64,000 nucleotides of DNA from Pelagomonas calceolata. Lineage: Eukaryota. This document shows, one piece after another, positions 24,389 to 32,121 of the stretch (positions are counted from its first letter, which is position 1; every line of letters begins with the position of its first letter). A program made the translations under genes and the position numbers. Where the stretch lies: NCBI GenBank assembly GCA_918797485.1, contig CAKKNE010000002.1:2542001-2606000 (forward strand). Direction: 5' to 3'. The notes under the pieces were generated by a model. The model was not told the DNA's origin. It did not search any database and saw only the letters and a list, made by a program, of their open reading frames with translations.

Positions 24389-24697
24389 TGACATTGACTG
24401 AGATAGCAGCGCGAAATGGGGTCCACAAAACCCGAAAAGCCGTGCGGGTTGGGGCTGTCGAACCTACTAGCCAGGCCGGTGGGTGTGCAGCGCTTTTGCT
24501 ACCCGTAGGAAGAGCGGCGAATGTACTCCCGCATGCGTCCGTTGGCTTGGGCGAGACGTCCGTGAGGCGCCCGCGACCAAAGCACGTTTTTTCGTTTCGT
24601 GCGGGAATTTCACCTGACCTCTGACTTGGAGCTGCTCCAGACTGATGAATGACAATGATACAGTCTTCCACGGCCAGATGACCTACAACAAACAAGC

Positions 24698-26818
24698 ATG
24701 AGGTCCCTCCTCGCCTTCGGGTGCCTGGCAGCATGCGCCGGCATGTCGGCCCCGGTCTCGCGGCGGCCCAATGCCTTTTCAGCCAAAACCAGCCCAGCGG
24801 CCCCCCGCCGCGGGCCAGCGCTGGCGCCGCCGGCCGGCCGCGACCGCCGGCCACGCCGGCGCCCCCTCACCCTCGAAACGGCGAGACACCTGCTGAACAA
24901 GGGCGCGCTCTCGCACGACGACGCCGTCGCCGCGGTGCGGAGCGCGACGCGGCTGGCCCAGTCCCCGGCGCCGCGGCACAAGACGCGGCCCACACGAAAC
25001 GACGTCGACGCGTTCGTGCGTGATGTGTTAAATGCCCCTTCTAGAAGCTGGGAGCCGACGGAGCGCCTCTGTGCGGTGGCATTGGACGCGCACGCCAGGG
25101 ACGGCGACGTCAAGGCGACGCGTCAGCTGATCCGAGCGGCGCGGAGTCTAGGCGGCGTCCAGCCGGGCCCCGTCTCCTTTTGTATTTTGATCAAGGCTGT
25201 CGGTCGAAGGGGCGAAAAACTCCCGAGCGGCCGCGAAAAGAGGACGCTGACCAAATCCGTCGACGAGGCCATCAAGGGCTGCGCCCGCAATAGTGTACCG
25301 GACGCTGTATTATTAAACGCGGCGGTCGACGCCTACGCGCGACTCGGCGCGGTCGACGACGCTTTGCACTTAGTCGGCTCCTTCGGGGACTACGGCGTGC
25401 AGGCCGACGCGCGCGCCTACAACGCCGCCCTCAAAGCGTTAGTTAGAAGACCGCGCGACGCCTTGGCTTTACGGAGACGCATGCGGGCCGCCAACGTAAA
25501 ACCGACGGCGGTCACGAACGCAACATTAATAAACACGATCGCGCTCCACAACCCCGCGCGAGCGCAGCGGCTGCTGCCTACGCTGGTGCGCGACGACTTC
25601 GCGCGGGACCGCGACGCGTTGAACGCGGCGACGGCCGCGTACACGTCGGTCGTCGGCGCCTTCGCGTCACAAGGCGCGGAGCGGGCGGCCTATGACGTGG
25701 CCGGTCTCATGCGACGGCGTTCCGTCCCTCTGAACGCGGTGACCTTCGCGGAGTTATTCAGAGCGGCGTCTACCGCGACGAAAGGCTCCAAACGGGCGAG
25801 GCGCATCCGAGGCTTGTGGCGGCGCCTCACGAAAGATAGGATCCGCCCGACGCGCGGGTGTTATGATGTCGCTATTGCATCTTTAATTGGAGACGTCCCA
25901 GACCCGGCGTGTCTGCGGCTAGCTCTGGACCTGTCGGCGACGATGCGGGCCGACGTGGGCTGGTCCACGACGACTCTGAATCTGATACTGGCCGCGTTGT
26001 ACGCGAGCGACGCGCGCGCTAAGGAGGCTCGTTCGACGTACGACGCGCCGGTCGCGAGCGATCGCAATGCGAAATTAAGAGCTGCGGAAAGATTGTTCGA
26101 TCGCGCGGAGCGGGACCCGAGGACGTGCGCGCCGCCCGATTGTGCTACGTACACCATCGCTCTACGAGCGAGAGCTCGGCGCGGCGACCTCGATGGGTGT
26201 AGGCAAGCGTTCCGCTCATTGCGGGACTCGCCGACCTTATCCGTCGACAACGTGGCGGCGACGTCCATGCTCGTCGCCCTCGCGCGGGCCGGTGCGCTGT
26301 CGGAGATGTGGCGGCTCCTCGAGGACATGCGCAACGTCGAGATGTGCGAGGACCTGCCGACGCCCGACGCGGACGCTGTTGAAGTTGTGGTCAGGGCGTT
26401 AGCTCGGGCTCGCAGCGGTGTCGCCGCCGACAAAGCGATCGCGCTTTATGAGAGGCACTTTGGCACGCGCGGCGACCTCGGTGCGCCCTCGGAGGCCTGC
26501 GTGCAGGCCGTGCTCTTGGCGTGCGCGCGCAAGGCGCCGCCGCCGAAGGGTCTCTTCGATCTGAAGCGGTCCGTGCGCGACGACGTCAAGGCCGCACGGG
26601 AGGTGCTCGACGGCCTCGAGGGGCGGCTTCCATCTGATACGGTGCGCGACCTGCGCCAGTACGCGCGCGAGACGCTCGCCCAGTGCGAGACGGAGACGTG
26701 GCGCGACGGCGCGGGCCAGCGGCCCGGAGGGCGGTGGACGGAGCCCGAGTCGGCCTCGGATCGGCTCTTCTCGCAGAAGGGCTGGAACTCCGTGGATTCG
26801 GGGTTCAAGCTCTTCTGA
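24698..26818 (+). CDS. Pentatricopeptide repeat (PPR) protein, probably plastid-targeted
   Basis: Signal peptide; repeats PDAVLLNAAVDAYARLG, ADARAYNAALKAL, PTAVTNATLINTIA, PDCATYTIALRARARRGD, DNVAATSMLVALARAG. Confidence 0.85.
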   Translation: MRSLLAFGCLAACAGMSAPVSRRPNAFSAKTSPAAPRRGPALAPPAGRDRRPRRRPLTLETARHLLNKGALSHDDAVAAVRSATRLAQSPAPRHKTRPTRNDVDAFVRDVLNAPSRSWEPTERLCAVALDAHARDGDVKATRQLIRAARSLGGVQPGPVSFCILIKAVGRRGEKLPSGREKRTLTKSVDEAIKGCARNSVPDAVLLNAAVDAYARLGAVDDALHLVGSFGDYGVQADARAYNAALKALVRRPRDALALRRRMRAANVKPTAVTNATLINTIALHNPARAQRLLPTLVRDDFARDRDALNAATAAYTSVVGAFASQGAERAAYDVAGLMRRRSVPLNAVTFAELFRAASTATKGSKRARRIRGLWRRLTKDRIRPTRGCYDVAIASLIGDVPDPACLRLALDLSATMRADVGWSTTTLNLILAALYASDARAKEARSTYDAPVASDRNAKLRAAERLFDRAERDPRTCAPPDCATYTIALRARARRGDLDGCRQAFRSLRDSPTLSVDNVAATSMLVALARAGALSEMWRLLEDMRNVEMCEDLPTPDADAVEVVVRALARARSGVAADKAIALYERHFGTRGDLGAPSEACVQAVLLACARKAPPPKGLFDLKRSVRDDVKAAREVLDGLEGRLPSDTVRDLRQYARETLAQCETETWRDGAGQRPGGRWTEPESASDRLFSQKGWNSVDSGFKLF

Positions 26819-26838: not shown

Positions 26839-27544
26839 CTAGTCCTCCGCGGTGAGGTCGACGACGGCGTCCTTCTTGGTGCGCTTTTCTTGCGGCGGGA
26901 GGAAGCCCGGCGAGTCCAGGTACTGCGTGTCGGGCTCCTCGGCCTTCCGCTTTGTCGGCGATGGCGTGCGGCCGAGAAGCGCATTCACGAGGGCGACGTT
27001 CTCGTGGTCTTCTTCCGAAGCTTCGAGAACTTGGTCGAAGCGTTCGCCCTTGCCGATGGGTTTCTGGCGATTCTTGAGCATGCCGACGAGGCCCGCGACC
27101 TTGCTCGGGTTGTTGAGATCGCCGTCGTGCTCGCCTCTGGAGGCGCGAGCCTTGGCGCGCTCGATGCACGTAGACACGTCCGCCGTGAACCGTAACGCGA
27201 CGACCTCGACGTTGCAGCGCTTCGCGATCTTCACCCAGTGCGAGCGCTGCTTCGGGTCGAGATCGGTACGATCCACCTGTGTGGAAATCAAACGTCGAGC
27301 GTCCCGCTCAGGTCCCGCGCCAATGCGGCGCCATCGACACGACTTCGTTAATTTCCACACTGCGACGTGCGTAGGCCACCTTGCCCGCTCGCACGGTCTC
27401 CTCGACGAGCGCCTCGACCTTCTCGCGCCGTTTTAAGAGATCTTGACAGCAGCGGACGGCGTCGGGAAGAAACTTCTCGTGGAAGCGCGACTTGCCGGCG
27501 CCGGGCAGGCCGACGGCGACAATTACCAGGCCTTTGCTTTCCAT
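26839..27544 (-). CDS. P-loop kinase (AAA_33/polynucleotide-kinase-like), exons 27544-27371 and 27276-26839
   Basis: IVAVGLPGAGKS Walker A; splicing restores KVAY|VDRTDLDPKQRSHW...CIERAKAR in frame (203 aa). Confidence 0.85.
27277..27370 (-). mobile_element. Introner-like GC-AG intron (94 nt) with 15-bp TIRs
   Basis: Minus strand GCACGTCG + CAGTGTGGAAATTAA...TTGATTTCCACACAG; removal is needed to join the two kinase frames. Confidence 0.85.
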
Positions 27545-27829
27545 GATTCTTCGGCGGTCTCGCGCGTGATTATAGGCGCCCGGCGCGCGGCGACCAGTAA
27601 TATGAGATATGATCTATCCGCAGGACTGGACAGGCAAGCGCGCACGTTGGTTGACCAACCAATGAGGCGACGGCCGTCCAATAAAAACCCACGAACAACC
27701 CCGCTCGCGCTAGGGGCGCGTAACCAAGCCCAATACGTCGAGCTAGCGGCCTGTAAGACACTAGCAAGCCGCAGAGGTCGCAGATTTGGACCTAATTAGT
27801 GGTTATACATTGCATCTCTGCGCGCAAGC

Positions 27830-29800
27830 ATGGCCCCACAGCTGCCAGCATCCGCGCTCGCAGCGATATCTGGCTACATTGATCGGGAAGAGCCAGCTGA
27901 GCCACCAGCCCCAGCAAGGCCCGCGGCAGCCGCGGCCGCCGCTGCGCCTCCACAGCTGCCGGCAAGTGCTCTCGCAGCGATTTCGGGATACATCGACCGC
28001 GAGGAGCCGGCTGCACCACCGCTGCCGCCGCCCGCACCGGCTGCGCCGCCACCGGCGCGCGACCGCGAGGAACAAACACTCAGAGAAATCGAGCCGCTCG
28101 ACGCCTCCGCCGTCTTCGCGCTGCTGCACCCGGACGGGCCCGGCTACGCGGTCGTCGACGGCGTGTTGGGACAAGAAACGGCGCGGAGGGCGGCCCGCGC
28201 GGCGGCCGCCGCACGAACACAATTGAAGCGCGCGCGCGTCGGCCGCGGCGACGCGCGGCGCCTCTCCGACGAGCGCACGGACGAGGCCGCGTTTTTGGAT
28301 GAGAGGAGCCAGCACCCCGATTTGCAAGTGCTCTGTCACGCGCTGCGGAAACTGCGGTCCTCGCTTTGTGTAGGAGGCGCCTGGGACGACAAGGCCGCCG
28401 AGTTACGTTTGGATGCAACAACAACCTCGACGCAGCTCGCCTGTTATCAGCCGGGCGGGCGCTACCGGCGCCACGCGGACGCGTTGTCCGATGACGACGC
28501 GCGGCAGCGCGACGCGCTGCGCGGCAAGCCTCTGTTAACGCGCAATCGCCGGATCACGGCGGTCTATTACTTAAATGAAAACTGGAATCGTGAAGATGGC
28601 GGCGCGCTCCGCATCTATGCCGATACATGGACGCCCGACGCCCAACCTTTTGATGTTTTACCTCGATTGGACCGCCTCGTTTTGTTTAGGAGCACTCTAC
28701 AACATGAGGTCCTCGTGACGCGCAGGGAGCGCCTCGCGCTGACGCAGTGGTGGTACGGCCGCATCGACGATGATAACGAGCGCGTGCCGTGGCGGCTGCC
28801 GGCGCCGGGTAGAGCCCTCTCTGGTTTATCGACCGAGGGGCGAATTTTTGTTTCCGTGGCCGCGTACCGAGATCCGGAGACGGAGCGGACGCTGCAGCAC
28901 TTGTTCGCCACCGCGAAGAACCCGAAGCGCGTCCGTGTGGTGGTCGTGCAGCAGTACGACTGTCTGGAGGGGAGCGATGATGATCTGGTAGGAAGGCTAT
29001 ATAACCACGAGGCGGAGGCGCGCGTGACGCGGATACGCGTCGATTTTCGCGACGCGAACGGCCCGTGTCCCGCAAGGGCGTGCGCGCTGCGTCGCTTGAC
29101 TGATGAAGACGACTTCGTCCTCCAGATCGACAGCCACACGCGCTTCCGCAGCCACTGGGACGCGTATCTGATCGATCAATTAGCCAAGTGTGATAGTAAG
29201 GAGCCCGTGCTGACCGCCTACCCCGCGGACTACGACAAGGATTCAGCTGCCCTACCTTCCGACGTGCGGCCAACTCTGTTAGTCCCCTCGGGCTTCGACA
29301 AGGACGGCGTGCTGCGGATCAAGGGCCGGCGGCTCGCGCGGGTTCACGAGGAACCGATCCCGTCGCCGCTCTGGTGCGCCGGGTTCTCCTTCTGTCGAGC
29401 TAAAGTGTGGCGCCGCGTCACATACGAGCCGCTTCCCCATTTATTTTTTGGCGAGGAGCTACTGCACGCCGCTCGATTGTTTTGTAGTGGCTGCGACTTC
29501 TTCGCGCCGCCCGAGCAGGTGATCTTCCACCGCTGGTCGCGGAGCGGACGGCGGACGCTCGCCGAGGACCAGCCTCGTCGAAACGCGGCGGCCGCGCGCG
29601 GCCGCGCCTTCGAGCTGCTCGAAACAATTGAAGGGCCGCGGTCGCTCGCCGCGTTCGAAGCAAGGGCGGGCGTTGATTTGAAAAAGCGCGTCTTATTGCC
29701 CGGCGCCGACCGGGGCGGCCTGTCCCCTGAAGCGTTCGCCGACGGCGCGTCGTCCTCCGCGGGCGCGCAGGTCGCGGCGCTGCTGGGGCTGAAGCTTTGA
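27830..29800 (+). CDS. Fusion of 2OG-Fe(II) prolyl-4-hydroxylase (PhyA/EGLN-like) and GT60 GlcNAc-transferase (Gnt1-like)
   Basis: YRRHAD (28472), RRITAVYYLNENW..DGGALRI, PRLDRLVLFRS..HEVL..RLALTQW; then IFVSVAAYRDPE, GPCPARA, LQIDSHTRF..WD (29129), VLTAYP, WCAGFSF, LFFGEE. Confidence 0.88.
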   Translation: MAPQLPASALAAISGYIDREEPAEPPAPARPAAAAAAAAPPQLPASALAAISGYIDREEPAAPPLPPPAPAAPPPARDREEQTLREIEPLDASAVFALLHPDGPGYAVVDGVLGQETARRAARAAAAARTQLKRARVGRGDARRLSDERTDEAAFLDERSQHPDLQVLCHALRKLRSSLCVGGAWDDKAAELRLDATTTSTQLACYQPGGRYRRHADALSDDDARQRDALRGKPLLTRNRRITAVYYLNENWNREDGGALRIYADTWTPDAQPFDVLPRLDRLVLFRSTLQHEVLVTRRERLALTQWWYGRIDDDNERVPWRLPAPGRALSGLSTEGRIFVSVAAYRDPETERTLQHLFATAKNPKRVRVVVVQQYDCLEGSDDDLVGRLYNHEAEARVTRIRVDFRDANGPCPARACALRRLTDEDDFVLQIDSHTRFRSHWDAYLIDQLAKCDSKEPVLTAYPADYDKDSAALPSDVRPTLLVPSGFDKDGVLRIKGRRLARVHEEPIPSPLWCAGFSFCRAKVWRRVTYEPLPHLFFGEELLHAARLFCSGCDFFAPPEQVIFHRWSRSGRRTLAEDQPRRNAAAARGRAFELLETIEGPRSLAAFEARAGVDLKKRVLLPGADRGGLSPEAFADGASSSAGAQVAALLGLKL

Positions 29801-30036
29801 TTTATTATAACGTTGTGTTTTCTGTTCCGTTGTGGATGCCTGGTTGGAATTCGTCCAGGAAAGCTAGTGTAGTGACACACTAGTAATAGGCGCCGCACTG
29901 AACCACCGCGCATCGCGCACAGTCGTCGTGCGCACGGCCGTTTAGCGGCAAATACACCGCCGCAAAGGCAGTCACACGCTGCGACGCCGCCAGCGCGGCG
30001 CACGGAAGAGCCCTGTGATTCACTGCTAAGCTGCTT

Positions 30037-32121
30037 ATGGTACAAACGCACGCGTACTTGAGGGGCGCGGCCACGCTGGCCTTCCAGGCCTACCAGTACC
30101 AGCGACGCCTGGACGAGGGCGACGACTCCCTGAATTTGGATTTTAACACGGGGTCGAAAGCCGGCGACGCCGTCCTCACTTGGTTCCTTGTATTTGTGAT
30201 GGTCTTCCTGTCGGCCATGTTTTCTGGTCTTACCTTAGGGTTGTTGGGACTGGACAAGACGGGGCTGGAGATCGTCATGGGCGGCGGTTCGCCGCAGGAG
30301 CGCGCGGACGCGAAGGTCATCTATCCCATCCGCGAAGACGGTAATAGATTGCTGTGTACCTTATTGTTGGGCAATGTGGCCGTCAACGCTTTGTTGAGTA
30401 TCACTCTAGCGGACATCGCGTCGTCGTTGATAGGCTTCTTCGCCTCCACAGCACTGATTGTCATCTTTGGCGAGATCCTGCCTCAAGCACTTTGTAGTAG
30501 ATACGCGCTCCGAGTCGGGGCGTCGTCCATGCCTCTCGTGAAGTTCTTCCTCATCATATTAGCGCCGGTCGCGGTACCCTTAGCAAAGGTCCTGGACTAT
30601 TTTCTCGAGGAAGACGTGGGAACAGTGCATACAAAAAATGAGATGATGCACTACTTGAAGCTCCACGCTAAAAGGGGCGGCCTGGACAACGAGTCCGGTT
30701 TAGTGATGCGCGGCGCGTTGGAGATGAAGGAAAAAAGAGTCAGAGAGGTGATGACGCCGCTCGAGGACGTGTACATGTTACCGGAGTCGACACGCCTGTC
30801 GTTCAAGGTCGTCAGGGAGATCTTCGAGCAGGGGTTTAGTCGGGTCCCGGTCTTTCGGGGAGAACGGCAAAGAATAGTAGGATTGCTCTTCGTGAAGGAC
30901 CTGATTTTTGTGGATCCCGAGGACGAGACCGCATTGACGTCGTTGTTAGGTATCTTCGCAAGAGGTTTGCAGATCGTGGACGAGACCGATAGTCTGGATG
31001 ATGTCTTGAGGATCTTCAAGGCCGGCCATGGGCATCTCGCGTTGGTGAGGCGAGGCGAAGTAACGAAGAAATTAACAGCGATCCAAGAAGACAGTAACGA
31101 GTCCAAGGAAGTGGAATTAACAGAAATGGGCGCGCCGCCCGTACCTGATCAAGCACCGTCGGTTTTCGTTGGGATAGTCACTCTAGAAGATATCGTCGAG
31201 GAAATTCTCGGCGACGAGATCATCGACGAGACGGACGTCTTTGTGGACGTGGACAACCACGTGAAAGTTGCTGGAAGATCTGATTTTGATTTTACCAAAC
31301 TAAGAAGGCTGGACGCGGAGTTTGTTGATGAACGCTTGAGTCCGGAGGAGGTGCAAGCGGTCACTAGTCATCTACTCACGAACGTGAAGGCTTTGCGACG
31401 TTCGACAACTCTGGATCGGGACGAGATGGCGCAATTAGTACGAAGATCAAGAGTTGTGGAGATAAGACGCAAGTCCAAGAACCCGCATTCCGACAAGATT
31501 CACGCGCAGGATCGGATCTATGTCCGGGGCGAGGCCGCTTCTTATGCTACGCTCGTGTTGAACGGCAAGCTCAGTGTCCTAGCGGGTGTTGATGGGTTCA
31601 GAGCCGAGGCCGGGCCCTGGACTGTGCTCGGGGCTGACGCCCTTGTGTCGGATGAAGGGTCATTTGTTCCTGATTTCAGCGCCCACGTGGCTACGGATAG
31701 CGTGCGCTGCGTCCATGTCACTAGAGCCGAATACGAGCGGGCCATTACGGGTCGAAGAAGGAGAGGGAGGCGAGGCATGGGGACGGACGGCGAAGAGTCC
31801 GATACTGGTAGGAGGGCGCGGCTCGGCCGGCGCGGCGAGATGGCCGAGAAGCGCCGACGTTTAGCAAGGATGGCCGGTCAAAATAGGGGCGCGCGCGCCG
31901 GCCGCGCGGCGCTGGACCAGTTCCGGGGCGAGCAGACCGGCGCGATGTCCGACGGCGAGCGGCCTTTGGCGGCGGCCCGCGGCGAGGAGAGCGGCGCGTC
32001 GTCCCAGGCGTTGGATGCGCTGGACGTGGGCTACGCCTCGGACCCACAACTCGGGTCGTCTCGCGAGGACCTGCTGGCGAATGCCACGAGCGGGAACGAG
32101 AGCGGGAGCGACGTGGACTGA
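30037..32121 (+). CDS. CNNM/CorB-type metal transporter (DUF21 + CBS pair + cNMP-like domain)
   Basis: SAMFSGLTLGLLGLD, LLCTLLLGNVAVN, IFGEILPQALC, GFSRVPVF, GIVTLEDIVEEILGDEIIDETD. Confidence 0.93.
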   Translation: MVQTHAYLRGAATLAFQAYQYQRRLDEGDDSLNLDFNTGSKAGDAVLTWFLVFVMVFLSAMFSGLTLGLLGLDKTGLEIVMGGGSPQERADAKVIYPIREDGNRLLCTLLLGNVAVNALLSITLADIASSLIGFFASTALIVIFGEILPQALCSRYALRVGASSMPLVKFFLIILAPVAVPLAKVLDYFLEEDVGTVHTKNEMMHYLKLHAKRGGLDNESGLVMRGALEMKEKRVREVMTPLEDVYMLPESTRLSFKVVREIFEQGFSRVPVFRGERQRIVGLLFVKDLIFVDPEDETALTSLLGIFARGLQIVDETDSLDDVLRIFKAGHGHLALVRRGEVTKKLTAIQEDSNESKEVELTEMGAPPVPDQAPSVFVGIVTLEDIVEEILGDEIIDETDVFVDVDNHVKVAGRSDFDFTKLRRLDAEFVDERLSPEEVQAVTSHLLTNVKALRRSTTLDRDEMAQLVRRSRVVEIRRKSKNPHSDKIHAQDRIYVRGEAASYATLVLNGKLSVLAGVDGFRAEAGPWTVLGADALVSDEGSFVPDFSAHVATDSVRCVHVTRAEYERAITGRRRRGRRGMGTDGEESDTGRRARLGRRGEMAEKRRRLARMAGQNRGARAGRAALDQFRGEQTGAMSDGERPLAAARGEESGASSQALDALDVGYASDPQLGSSREDLLANATSGNESGSDVD

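What the first reader, a model, noticed from the sequence alone, without database searches (positions are those of the whole stretch)
27836..28012. Twin F-box-like peptides at the N-terminus of the PhyA-Gnt1 fusion: possible built-in Skp1 tether
Seen: PQLPASALAAISGYIDREEPA occurs twice (27836-27898, 27950-28012), identical in all 21 residues although 11 codons differ synonymously (including TCC vs AGT Ser), separated by Pro/Ala linkers. This points to strong protein-level selection. Established: the F-box core that binds Skp1 reads L-P-x-E-x-L-x-x-I-x-x-Y/F-L-D. Inference: LPASALAAISGYID fits that hydrophobic pattern, so the enzyme may recruit Skp1 by F-box mimicry, perhaps both protomers of a Skp1 dimer. 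I am not aware of this being described. The motif covers only the first part of an F-box.
Basis: partly seen in the sequence, partly recalled or inferred. Interest (0 to 1): 0.8.

Follow-up and report, generated by a model that had tools for sequence, protein, structure and literature searches.

The report
F-box mimic on Skp1-modifying oxygen sensor
An algal oxygen-sensing enzyme of the kind that modifies the ubiquitin-ligase adaptor Skp1 starts with two copies of a short helix that its relatives from slime moulds to fungi carry once; the helix resembles the first part of an F-box and likely lets the enzyme grip Skp1 where F-box proteins normally bind.

Summary
The gene is a PhyA-Gnt1 fusion (Skp1 prolyl hydroxylase plus GlcNAc transferase), a known enzyme type. 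It scores in 22 of 85 held-out fusions against 12 of 1670 control blocks, in stramenopiles, a green alga, chytrid fungi, a discoban, and in stand-alone Dictyostelium PhyA, in the segment cut from the crystal construct. It is a lone predicted helix on a flexible linker; two relatives match the first half of Pfam F-box models, below threshold. Best reading (0.65): a one-helix F-box mimic docks on Skp1 helices 5-7 and leaves the tail with the target proline free. Binding is untested. The 'both protomers of a dimer' idea is weak: the Skp1 dimer hides that site, most relatives have one copy, and 5 of 13 near-identical proteins lost copy 2. I found no description in print, but five key papers were not readable.

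The parts
27830..29800 (+). ORF, 656 aa, PhyA-Gnt1 fusion (P0001)
27836..27898 (+). Repeat copy 1 (residues 3-23); conserved 14-residue core is residues 5-18 (27842-27883), predicted helix 7-14
27899..27949 (+). Pro/Ala linker between the copies, low model confidence, variable among close relatives
27950..28012 (+). Repeat copy 2 (residues 41-61); core residues 43-56 (27956-27997), predicted helix 45-52; absent in 5 of 13 listed cluster members
28013..28093 (+). Pro/Ala-rich linker to the hydroxylase domain, low model confidence
28094..28765 (+). PhyA/PHD-type 2-oxoglutarate Fe(II) prolyl hydroxylase domain (about residues 89-312); H215, D217, H292 and R301 invariant in 37 of 37 aligned fusions
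28841..29704 (+). Gnt1-type GlcNAc transferase domain, PF11397 (about residues 338-625); D434 and H436 invariant in 37 of 37

Best explanation
The repeated peptide contains a conserved N-terminal motif of PhyA-type prolyl hydroxylases, predicted to form one amphipathic helix that likely docks on the F-box-binding face of Skp1 and so would hold the substrate near the enzyme. Steps: (1, shown) the gene encodes a PhyA-like domain fused to a Gnt1-like domain with catalytic residues intact; (2, shown) the pattern L-P-x-x-hydrophobic-x-x-x-I-hydrophobic-x-[F/L/Y]-[L/V/I] recurs at the N-terminus of relatives across several eukaryotic supergroups; (3, predicted) it is a lone helix on a flexible linker; (4, inferred) it corresponds to F-box helix 1 plus the loop before it and binds Skp1 helices 5-7 (subsite 1); (5, inferred) lacking helices 2-3 it would not fold Skp1 helix 8, so the tail with the target proline stays free to enter the hydroxylase and then the transferase site; (6, inferred) it would compete with Skp1 self-dimers and true F-box proteins, restricting modification to free Skp1; (7, weakest) the second copy in this clade is an optional booster of capture or rebinding, not a clamp for a dimer.
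For: Held-out test: a matrix trained on 14 motif copies hits scored 8 bits or more within the first 30 start positions in 22 of 85 independent fusions versus 12 of 1670 downstream blocks, 0 of 42 transferase-only proteins, 0 of 5 reverse-order fusions and 0 of 120 Skp1 N-termini. Two stand-alone Dictyostelium PhyA orthologues (P0378 matches 6T8M at E 6e-137 from residue 57 on) carry it at residues 6-19, 13.0 and 10.6 bits, shuffle p 0.001 each. Named carriers: Laminaria, Scenedesmus, Chrysoparadoxa, Pelagophyceae CCMP2097, three chytrids, Apiculatamorpha. Pfam: P0207 residues 3-23 match PF00646 positions 3-23 of 43 (E 0.072) and P0206 residues 7-28 match PF12937 positions 2-23 of 47 (E 0.14), exactly the first half and in register. 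AlphaFold2: helices 7-14 and 45-52 in P0001, helix 8-18 then a low-confidence linker 19-44 in D. firmibasis PhyA. Literature: most F-box-Skp1 contacts come from helix 1 and the loop before it, and cowpox CP77 binds Skp1 with only that helix (review PMC4353913); subsite 1 suffices for binding (PMC12101541); Skp1 peptides are poor PhyA substrates and the P143A mutant inhibits, pointing to recognition outside the active site (PMC7864055); F-box proteins, AgtA and GAT1, which covers helices 5-6, make Skp1 resistant to hydroxylation (PMC13278062). Pelagophyte Skp1 keeps the target proline.
Against: No member passes an F-box cut-off: 35 of 37 hand-picked motif carriers, P0001 included, gave no F-box hit at all, and the two hits are at 13.5 and 12.4 bits against cut-offs of 20.5 and 24.3. 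The copy in this window is a divergent one: Ala and Ser stand at two positions that are hydrophobic in 28 of 37 relatives. 63 of 85 held-out fusions score under 8 bits, among them a large unnamed clade that mostly lacks the motif, so it is not required family-wide (some may be mis-called starts). Full-length Dictyostelium PhyA has an apparent Km for Skp1 of about 350 uM, so any tether is weak or short-lived. The blocking by F-box proteins and GAT1 is also explained by steric cover of the tail. ESM Atlas searches of two N-terminal segments gave no named match.
Confidence: 0.65

Rival explanations
1. The helix binds something other than Skp1's F-box face: it packs back on the enzyme's own catalytic domain, mediates self-association, or recruits another pathway partner; the F-box likeness is that of any L-P-capped amphipathic helix.
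For: F-box matches are below threshold and limited to 2 of 37. Copy 2 reaches pLDDT about 71 at residues 41-50 in the single-chain model, which could reflect weak packing; contacts could not be inspected.
Against: The helix sits 31 to 84 residues (median 50) before the first strand of the catalytic core with a variable low-confidence linker; the Dictyostelium catalytic domain crystallised without residues 1-59; it is found with the PhyA domain whether or not Gnt1 is fused, and its one known protein substrate has a site for this pattern.
Confidence: 0.2
2. The motif acts as a true minimal F-box that loads the enzyme into an SCF ligase, for feedback self-ubiquitylation and turnover or to modify Skp1 inside SCF, rather than as a fleeting substrate tether.
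For: One-helix and two-helix viral F-boxes bind Skp1, some also Cul1; another 2-oxoglutarate oxygenase, JcdI/FBXO13, is an F-box protein in Dictyostelium and Toxoplasma.
Against: High apparent Km. In Toxoplasma co-IPs GAT1 was the only glycosyltransferase seen. A word search of the Dictyostelium interactome supplement found no 'P4H1' or 'prolyl', but no 'agtA' either, so it is inconclusive.
Confidence: 0.1
3. The two copies evolved to grip both subunits of an intact Skp1 homodimer.
For: Two copies mark one clade of 6 proteins (support 0.999), both are under purifying selection here, and free Skp1 is a dimer in other protists.
Against: The dimer interface overlaps subsite 1, so both sites are buried in the intact dimer; copy 2 is missing in 5 of 13 listed members of P0001's cluster; single copies are the rule elsewhere. 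Holding two released monomers remains possible.
Confidence: 0.08
4. The motif is a localisation or stability signal (for example a Leu-rich export signal or N-terminal degron) with no role in Skp1 recognition.
For: It always lies near the N-terminus: the motif Pro is within the first 21 residues in all 33 single-copy proteins of alignment A2.
Against: The near-invariant L-P start (34 and 32 of 37) and the invariant aliphatic residue eight places on (37 of 37) fit the F-box register; export-signal spacing, recalled and not tested, fits less well.
Confidence: 0.05

Closest known systems
PhyA-Gnt1 dual-function Skp1 prolyl 4-hydroxylase/GlcNAc transferase of Pythium (van der Wel 2019, seen only as a reference in PMC8724618; the name PhgA is recalled)
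   Same: [quoted passage not shown]
   Different: No N-terminal F-box-like helix is mentioned in any passage I could read; the paper itself was not held. Activity of this protein is untested.
Dictyostelium PhyA (P4H1), PDB 6T8M
   Same: Best PDB sequence match; orthologues from two Dictyostelium species carry the same N-terminal motif once.
   Different: Stand-alone, one copy; the structure lacks residues 1-59 and so lacks the motif.
Canonical F-box (PF00646, PF12937)
   Same: L-P start and hydrophobic spacing of helix 1; register match over model positions 2-23 in two relatives; N-terminal position.
   Different: No helices 2 and 3; below cut-off; attached to an enzyme that modifies Skp1 rather than to a substrate-receptor domain.
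Truncated poxvirus PRANC/F-boxes, e.g. CP77
   Same: One or two helices are enough to bind Skp1 (review passages).
   Different: C-terminal, viral, used to hijack SCF ligases; not a docking arm for an enzyme whose substrate is Skp1.
Toxoplasma GAT1 and Dictyostelium AgtA (terminal Skp1 glycosyltransferases)
   Same: Pathway enzymes that bind Skp1 away from their active site and compete with F-box proteins and the homodimer.
   Different: They use a folded surface or a WD40 domain, not an F-box-like linear motif, and act last rather than first.

Membership tests
PhyA-Gnt1 fusion | PHD-type 2OG oxygenase domain with HxD...H and the 2OG-binding Arg | tested here: met
   H215, D217, H292, R301 invariant in 37 of 37; best PDB hit 6T8M; fold matches PHD/PPHD/PhyA
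PhyA-Gnt1 fusion | C-terminal PF11397 GlcNAc transferase domain with DxH motif | tested here: met
   E 2.5e-54; D434 and H436 invariant
PhyA-Gnt1 fusion | Host Skp1 has the target proline | tested here: inconclusive
   All 39 Skp1 rows of A4, pelagophyte ones included, keep it, but the query came from a motif scan that requires it, and this organism's own Skp1 was not identified (no genome held)
PhyA-Gnt1 fusion | Hydroxylates and GlcNAcylates Skp1 | not testable with these tools
   Needs an enzyme assay
F-box (PF00646/PF12937) | Score above the Pfam gathering cut-off | tested here: not met
   0 of 37; best 13.5 bits against 20.5
F-box (PF00646/PF12937) | Three helices over about 40-45 residues | tested here: not met
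   One helix followed by low-confidence linker; conservation ends at motif position 14
F-box (PF00646/PF12937) | L-P start and helix-1 hydrophobic pattern | tested here: met
   In 37 proteins picked for the motif: L 34, P 32, I/V/L at position 9 in 37, hydrophobic at positions 12 and 13 in 32 and 30; in-register weak Pfam matches in 2. The consensus itself is recalled.
F-box (PF00646/PF12937) | Binds Skp1 subsite 1 | not testable with these tools
   Needs a binding assay
F-box protein (SCF substrate receptor) | Assembles with Cul1 and carries a substrate-receptor domain | not tested
   No WD40, LRR or similar domain in Pfam scans; Cul1 association not examined

The most novel reading that the evidence does not exclude
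Since early in eukaryote evolution, the Skp1 prolyl hydroxylase has recognised its substrate with a one-helix F-box mimic that prises Skp1 out of its homodimer, excludes F-box-loaded Skp1 and presents the unfolded tail to the active site. This undescribed arm answers how PhyA selects Skp1, distinguishes it from HIF-type PHDs, and in one algal clade was doubled to keep hold of the substrate through two successive reactions.
Probability: 0.4. Interest if true: 0.8.

Novelty: new variant of a known kind. Interest (0 to 1): 0.68.

Why it matters
How PhyA selects folded Skp1 is open: peptides are poor substrates, recognition lies outside the active site, and no complex structure exists (PMC7864055, Discussion). 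The motif gives a 14-residue candidate, lying in the very segment removed for crystallography, that can be tested with existing Dictyostelium reagents. If right, the first enzyme of protist oxygen sensing competes for the same Skp1 surface as F-box proteins, the homodimer and GAT1, and a partial F-box serves enzyme-substrate docking rather than ligase assembly. It would also give a sequence marker for Skp1-directed hydroxylases, which here extends the pathway's candidates to chytrid fungi.

Tried and rejected
Complex prediction of pelagophyte Skp1 (P0258 114-275) with P0001 36-66 gave no answer: scores 0.27 and 0.26 against a mark of 0.34, alignments not used, controls not folded, peptides untested for this tool; it is evidence neither way. 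Pfam scans found no F-box hit for P0001 whole or residues 1-81, for 10 close homologues or for the two Dictyostelium proteins. A whole-alignment PDB search returned no F-box chain among 53 hits; a motif-only profile search or profile-profile comparison against F-boxes was not done, so the statistical weight of the F-box match stays open. A search for F-box sequences in viral records searched 1 of 5 handles and found none. ESM Atlas: no usable hit for P0009 1-30, only unnamed hits under 0.8 for P0207 1-40. No genome is held, so this organism's own Skp1 was not found. The 5' end of the transcript was not mapped beyond. Rfam found nothing in 27500-28100. Assembly or recent-duplication artefact: rejected, since copies differ at 13 silent positions and the doubling recurs in a clade of diverged proteins. 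A likeness to the HIF LxxLAP degron (recalled) was considered and dropped: the motif has no proline at that place. Earlier findings of this scan: none by sequence or words. Near-miss control: bacterial-type P0381 scored 7.3 bits, shuffle p 0.01, inside its catalytic domain. A second matrix trained on A2 gave weak extra hits in P0084 and P0221 (about 10 bits) that are not tandem repeats.

Full report
1. Observation. The two 63-base stretches give the same 21 residues with 11 differing codons and 13 silent differences; chance retention was 0 of 200000 in a neutral simulation. They open a 656-aa ORF at 27830-29800 whose only Met is residue 1. RNA reads of one sample cover the region thinly, in the gene's orientation, with no listed joint in the raw-read runs. 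No genome is held.

2. The gene. Pfam gives a 2OG-Fe(II) oxygenase and a PF11397 GlcNAc transferase. The best PDB sequence match is Dictyostelium PhyA; the AlphaFold2 model (mean pLDDT 84.6) matches PPHD, PhyA and PHD2. Metal and 2OG ligands and the DxH motif are invariant in 37 aligned fusions. Such fusions are known (PMC8724618, passages).

3. The motif is conserved. Of 15 hits, two tandem copies occur in P0002, P0003, P0004, P0007, P0008 and one copy in P0009-P0013 and P0015; P0005 is a fragment, P0006 looks chimeric, P0014 and P0016 lack it. A profile search returned 150 representatives: 149 new, of which 107 have both domains and 42 the transferase only. I dropped 22 of the 107 (5 in reverse order, 17 with the hydroxylase match starting late; one of these, P0193, has the motif). 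In the remaining 85, a matrix trained only on 14 copies proteins scored 8 bits or more near the N-terminus in 22, against 12 of 1670 downstream blocks; at 14 bits, 7 of 85 against 0 of 1670. Caveat: the search profile included the motif columns, a small part of scores above 350 bits. Controls: 0 of 42, 0 of 5 and 0 of 120. A search for shorter relatives gave 6 hits: the two Dictyostelium PhyA orthologues have the motif at 6-19, the other four score under 8 bits. P0378 aligns to 6T8M from residue 57; the crystal construct is 60-284. Named carriers span stramenopiles, a green alga, chytrid fungi, a discoban and Amoebozoa. In a FastTree of 96 catalytic regions, midpoint-rooted, carriers are spread over the tree, the six two-copy proteins form one clade (0.999), and one large unnamed clade mostly lacks the motif; deep nodes are weak, so 'ancestral, lost in places' is inference.

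4. Copy number. Among 13 further listed members of P0001's 90% cluster (15 of 18 listed), 8 have two copies and 5 have one, keeping copy 1 and only the acidic tail of copy 2; 8 of 9 further members of the P0002 cluster and 12 of 14 of the P0007 cluster have two, the rest being N-terminally cut. So copy 2 is maintained by selection here yet dispensable in close kin. In P0001, P0007 and P0008 the two copies within a protein are more alike (14, 10, 11 of 14) than copies between these proteins (5 to 10 of 14), which fits concerted change or repeated duplication.

5. What it resembles. In 37 proteins picked for the motif, the pattern is L-P-x-x-hydrophobic-x-x-x-I-hydrophobic-x-[F/L/Y]-[L/V/I], with nothing conserved after it (these counts are circular by selection). 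Pfam F-box models match 2 of 37, at model positions 2-23, below cut-off. Both models show a lone helix on a low-confidence linker. It fails membership as an F-box; it may still work like the first helix of one. The copy in this window is among the less F-box-like.

6. Mechanism. From papers: Skp1 helices 5-7 form subsite 1 and helix 8 subsite 2, and the target proline is at the start of helix 8, disordered in free Skp1 (10.64898/2026.06.11.731712, Introduction; PMC12101541, passages and Discussion part 1). Helix 1 and its loop supply most contacts and can suffice (PMC4353913, passages). PhyA needs determinants outside its active site (PMC7864055, passages and Discussion) and is blocked when F-box proteins, AgtA or GAT1 hold Skp1 (PMC13278062, passages). 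Inference: a helix-1-only arm would occupy subsite 1, leave the tail free and, with 31 to 84 residues of spacer, reach the active site. Because the homodimer buries subsite 1 (10.1101/764126, passages), the arm would compete with the dimer rather than bridge it. Against: Km of about 350 uM for full-length Dictyostelium PhyA, loss in one large clade, and sub-threshold F-box scores. Whether Toxoplasma PhyA has the motif was not tested.

7. Novelty. Nine full-text searches and the passages read showed no mention of an F-box-like segment in PhyA. The 'F-box-like' passages shown for PMC9485057 (also section 5 and a supplement word search) and PMC11570480 concern interactors and JcdI. Not readable: PMC6774341, PMC3408163, PMC3192012, PMC2873859, PMC4623824 and the supplement of PMC7864055; van der Wel 2005 was not tried. 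These carry PhyA alignments and may note the segment, so I put the chance that it is already described at about one in five. PMC6332867 was seen as passages only.

8. Verdict. Real feature; known enzyme; probably undescribed conserved motif with a specific, cheap test. Best explanation 0.65, new variant of a known kind, interest 0.68.

Noticed in passing
P0251, P0252, P0258, P0272 and cluster members: Pelagophyte Skp1 is often encoded as a ubiquitin-Skp1 fusion (named: Pelagophyceae CCMP2097, Aureoumbra), some with two ubiquitin units. A paper on algal ubiquitin fusions (PMC6332867) has no occurrence of 'SKP' in its main text.
   Followed up: partly
P0197, P0206, P0221, P0382: PhyA-Gnt1 fusions with the motif in chytrid fungi (Spizellomyces, Rhizophlyctis, Nowakowskiella), although papers describe Skp1 glycosylation as confined to protists; a paper search for this found nothing.
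   Followed up: partly
P0075-P0082, P0087, P0088 and others: Long proteins with 3 to 6 matched PF11397-like stretches and no hydroxylase domain.
   Followed up: no
P0137, P0148, P0155, P0162, P0192: Reverse-order fusions, transferase first and 2OG oxygenase second; none has the motif.
   Followed up: partly
window 27732-27780: A short element upstream of the gene draws reads and contigs from many other loci; its core recurs at about 9272 (minus strand, 30 of 32) and 18923 (26 of 32) in the window; no Rfam match. Likely a dispersed repeat or promoter element.
   Followed up: partly
L001-L011, L013-L016: 15 of 16 viral-collection loci hit by the motif scan encode Skp1-like proteins with the target proline, many in giant-virus records; L013 has Skp1 fused to a long C-terminal part.
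   Followed up: no
window 26839-27544 (-), 24659-26818 (+), 30019-32121 (+): Neighbours: a divergently transcribed, apparently spliced AAA_33 P-loop gene, a PPR protein and a CNNM metal transporter; no link to the finding seen.
   Followed up: partly
P0098, P0104, P0107, P0167, P0215: Early branches of the clade that mostly lacks the motif appear by eye to keep its second half; only P0098 scores above 8 bits. May show stepwise decay.
   Followed up: no
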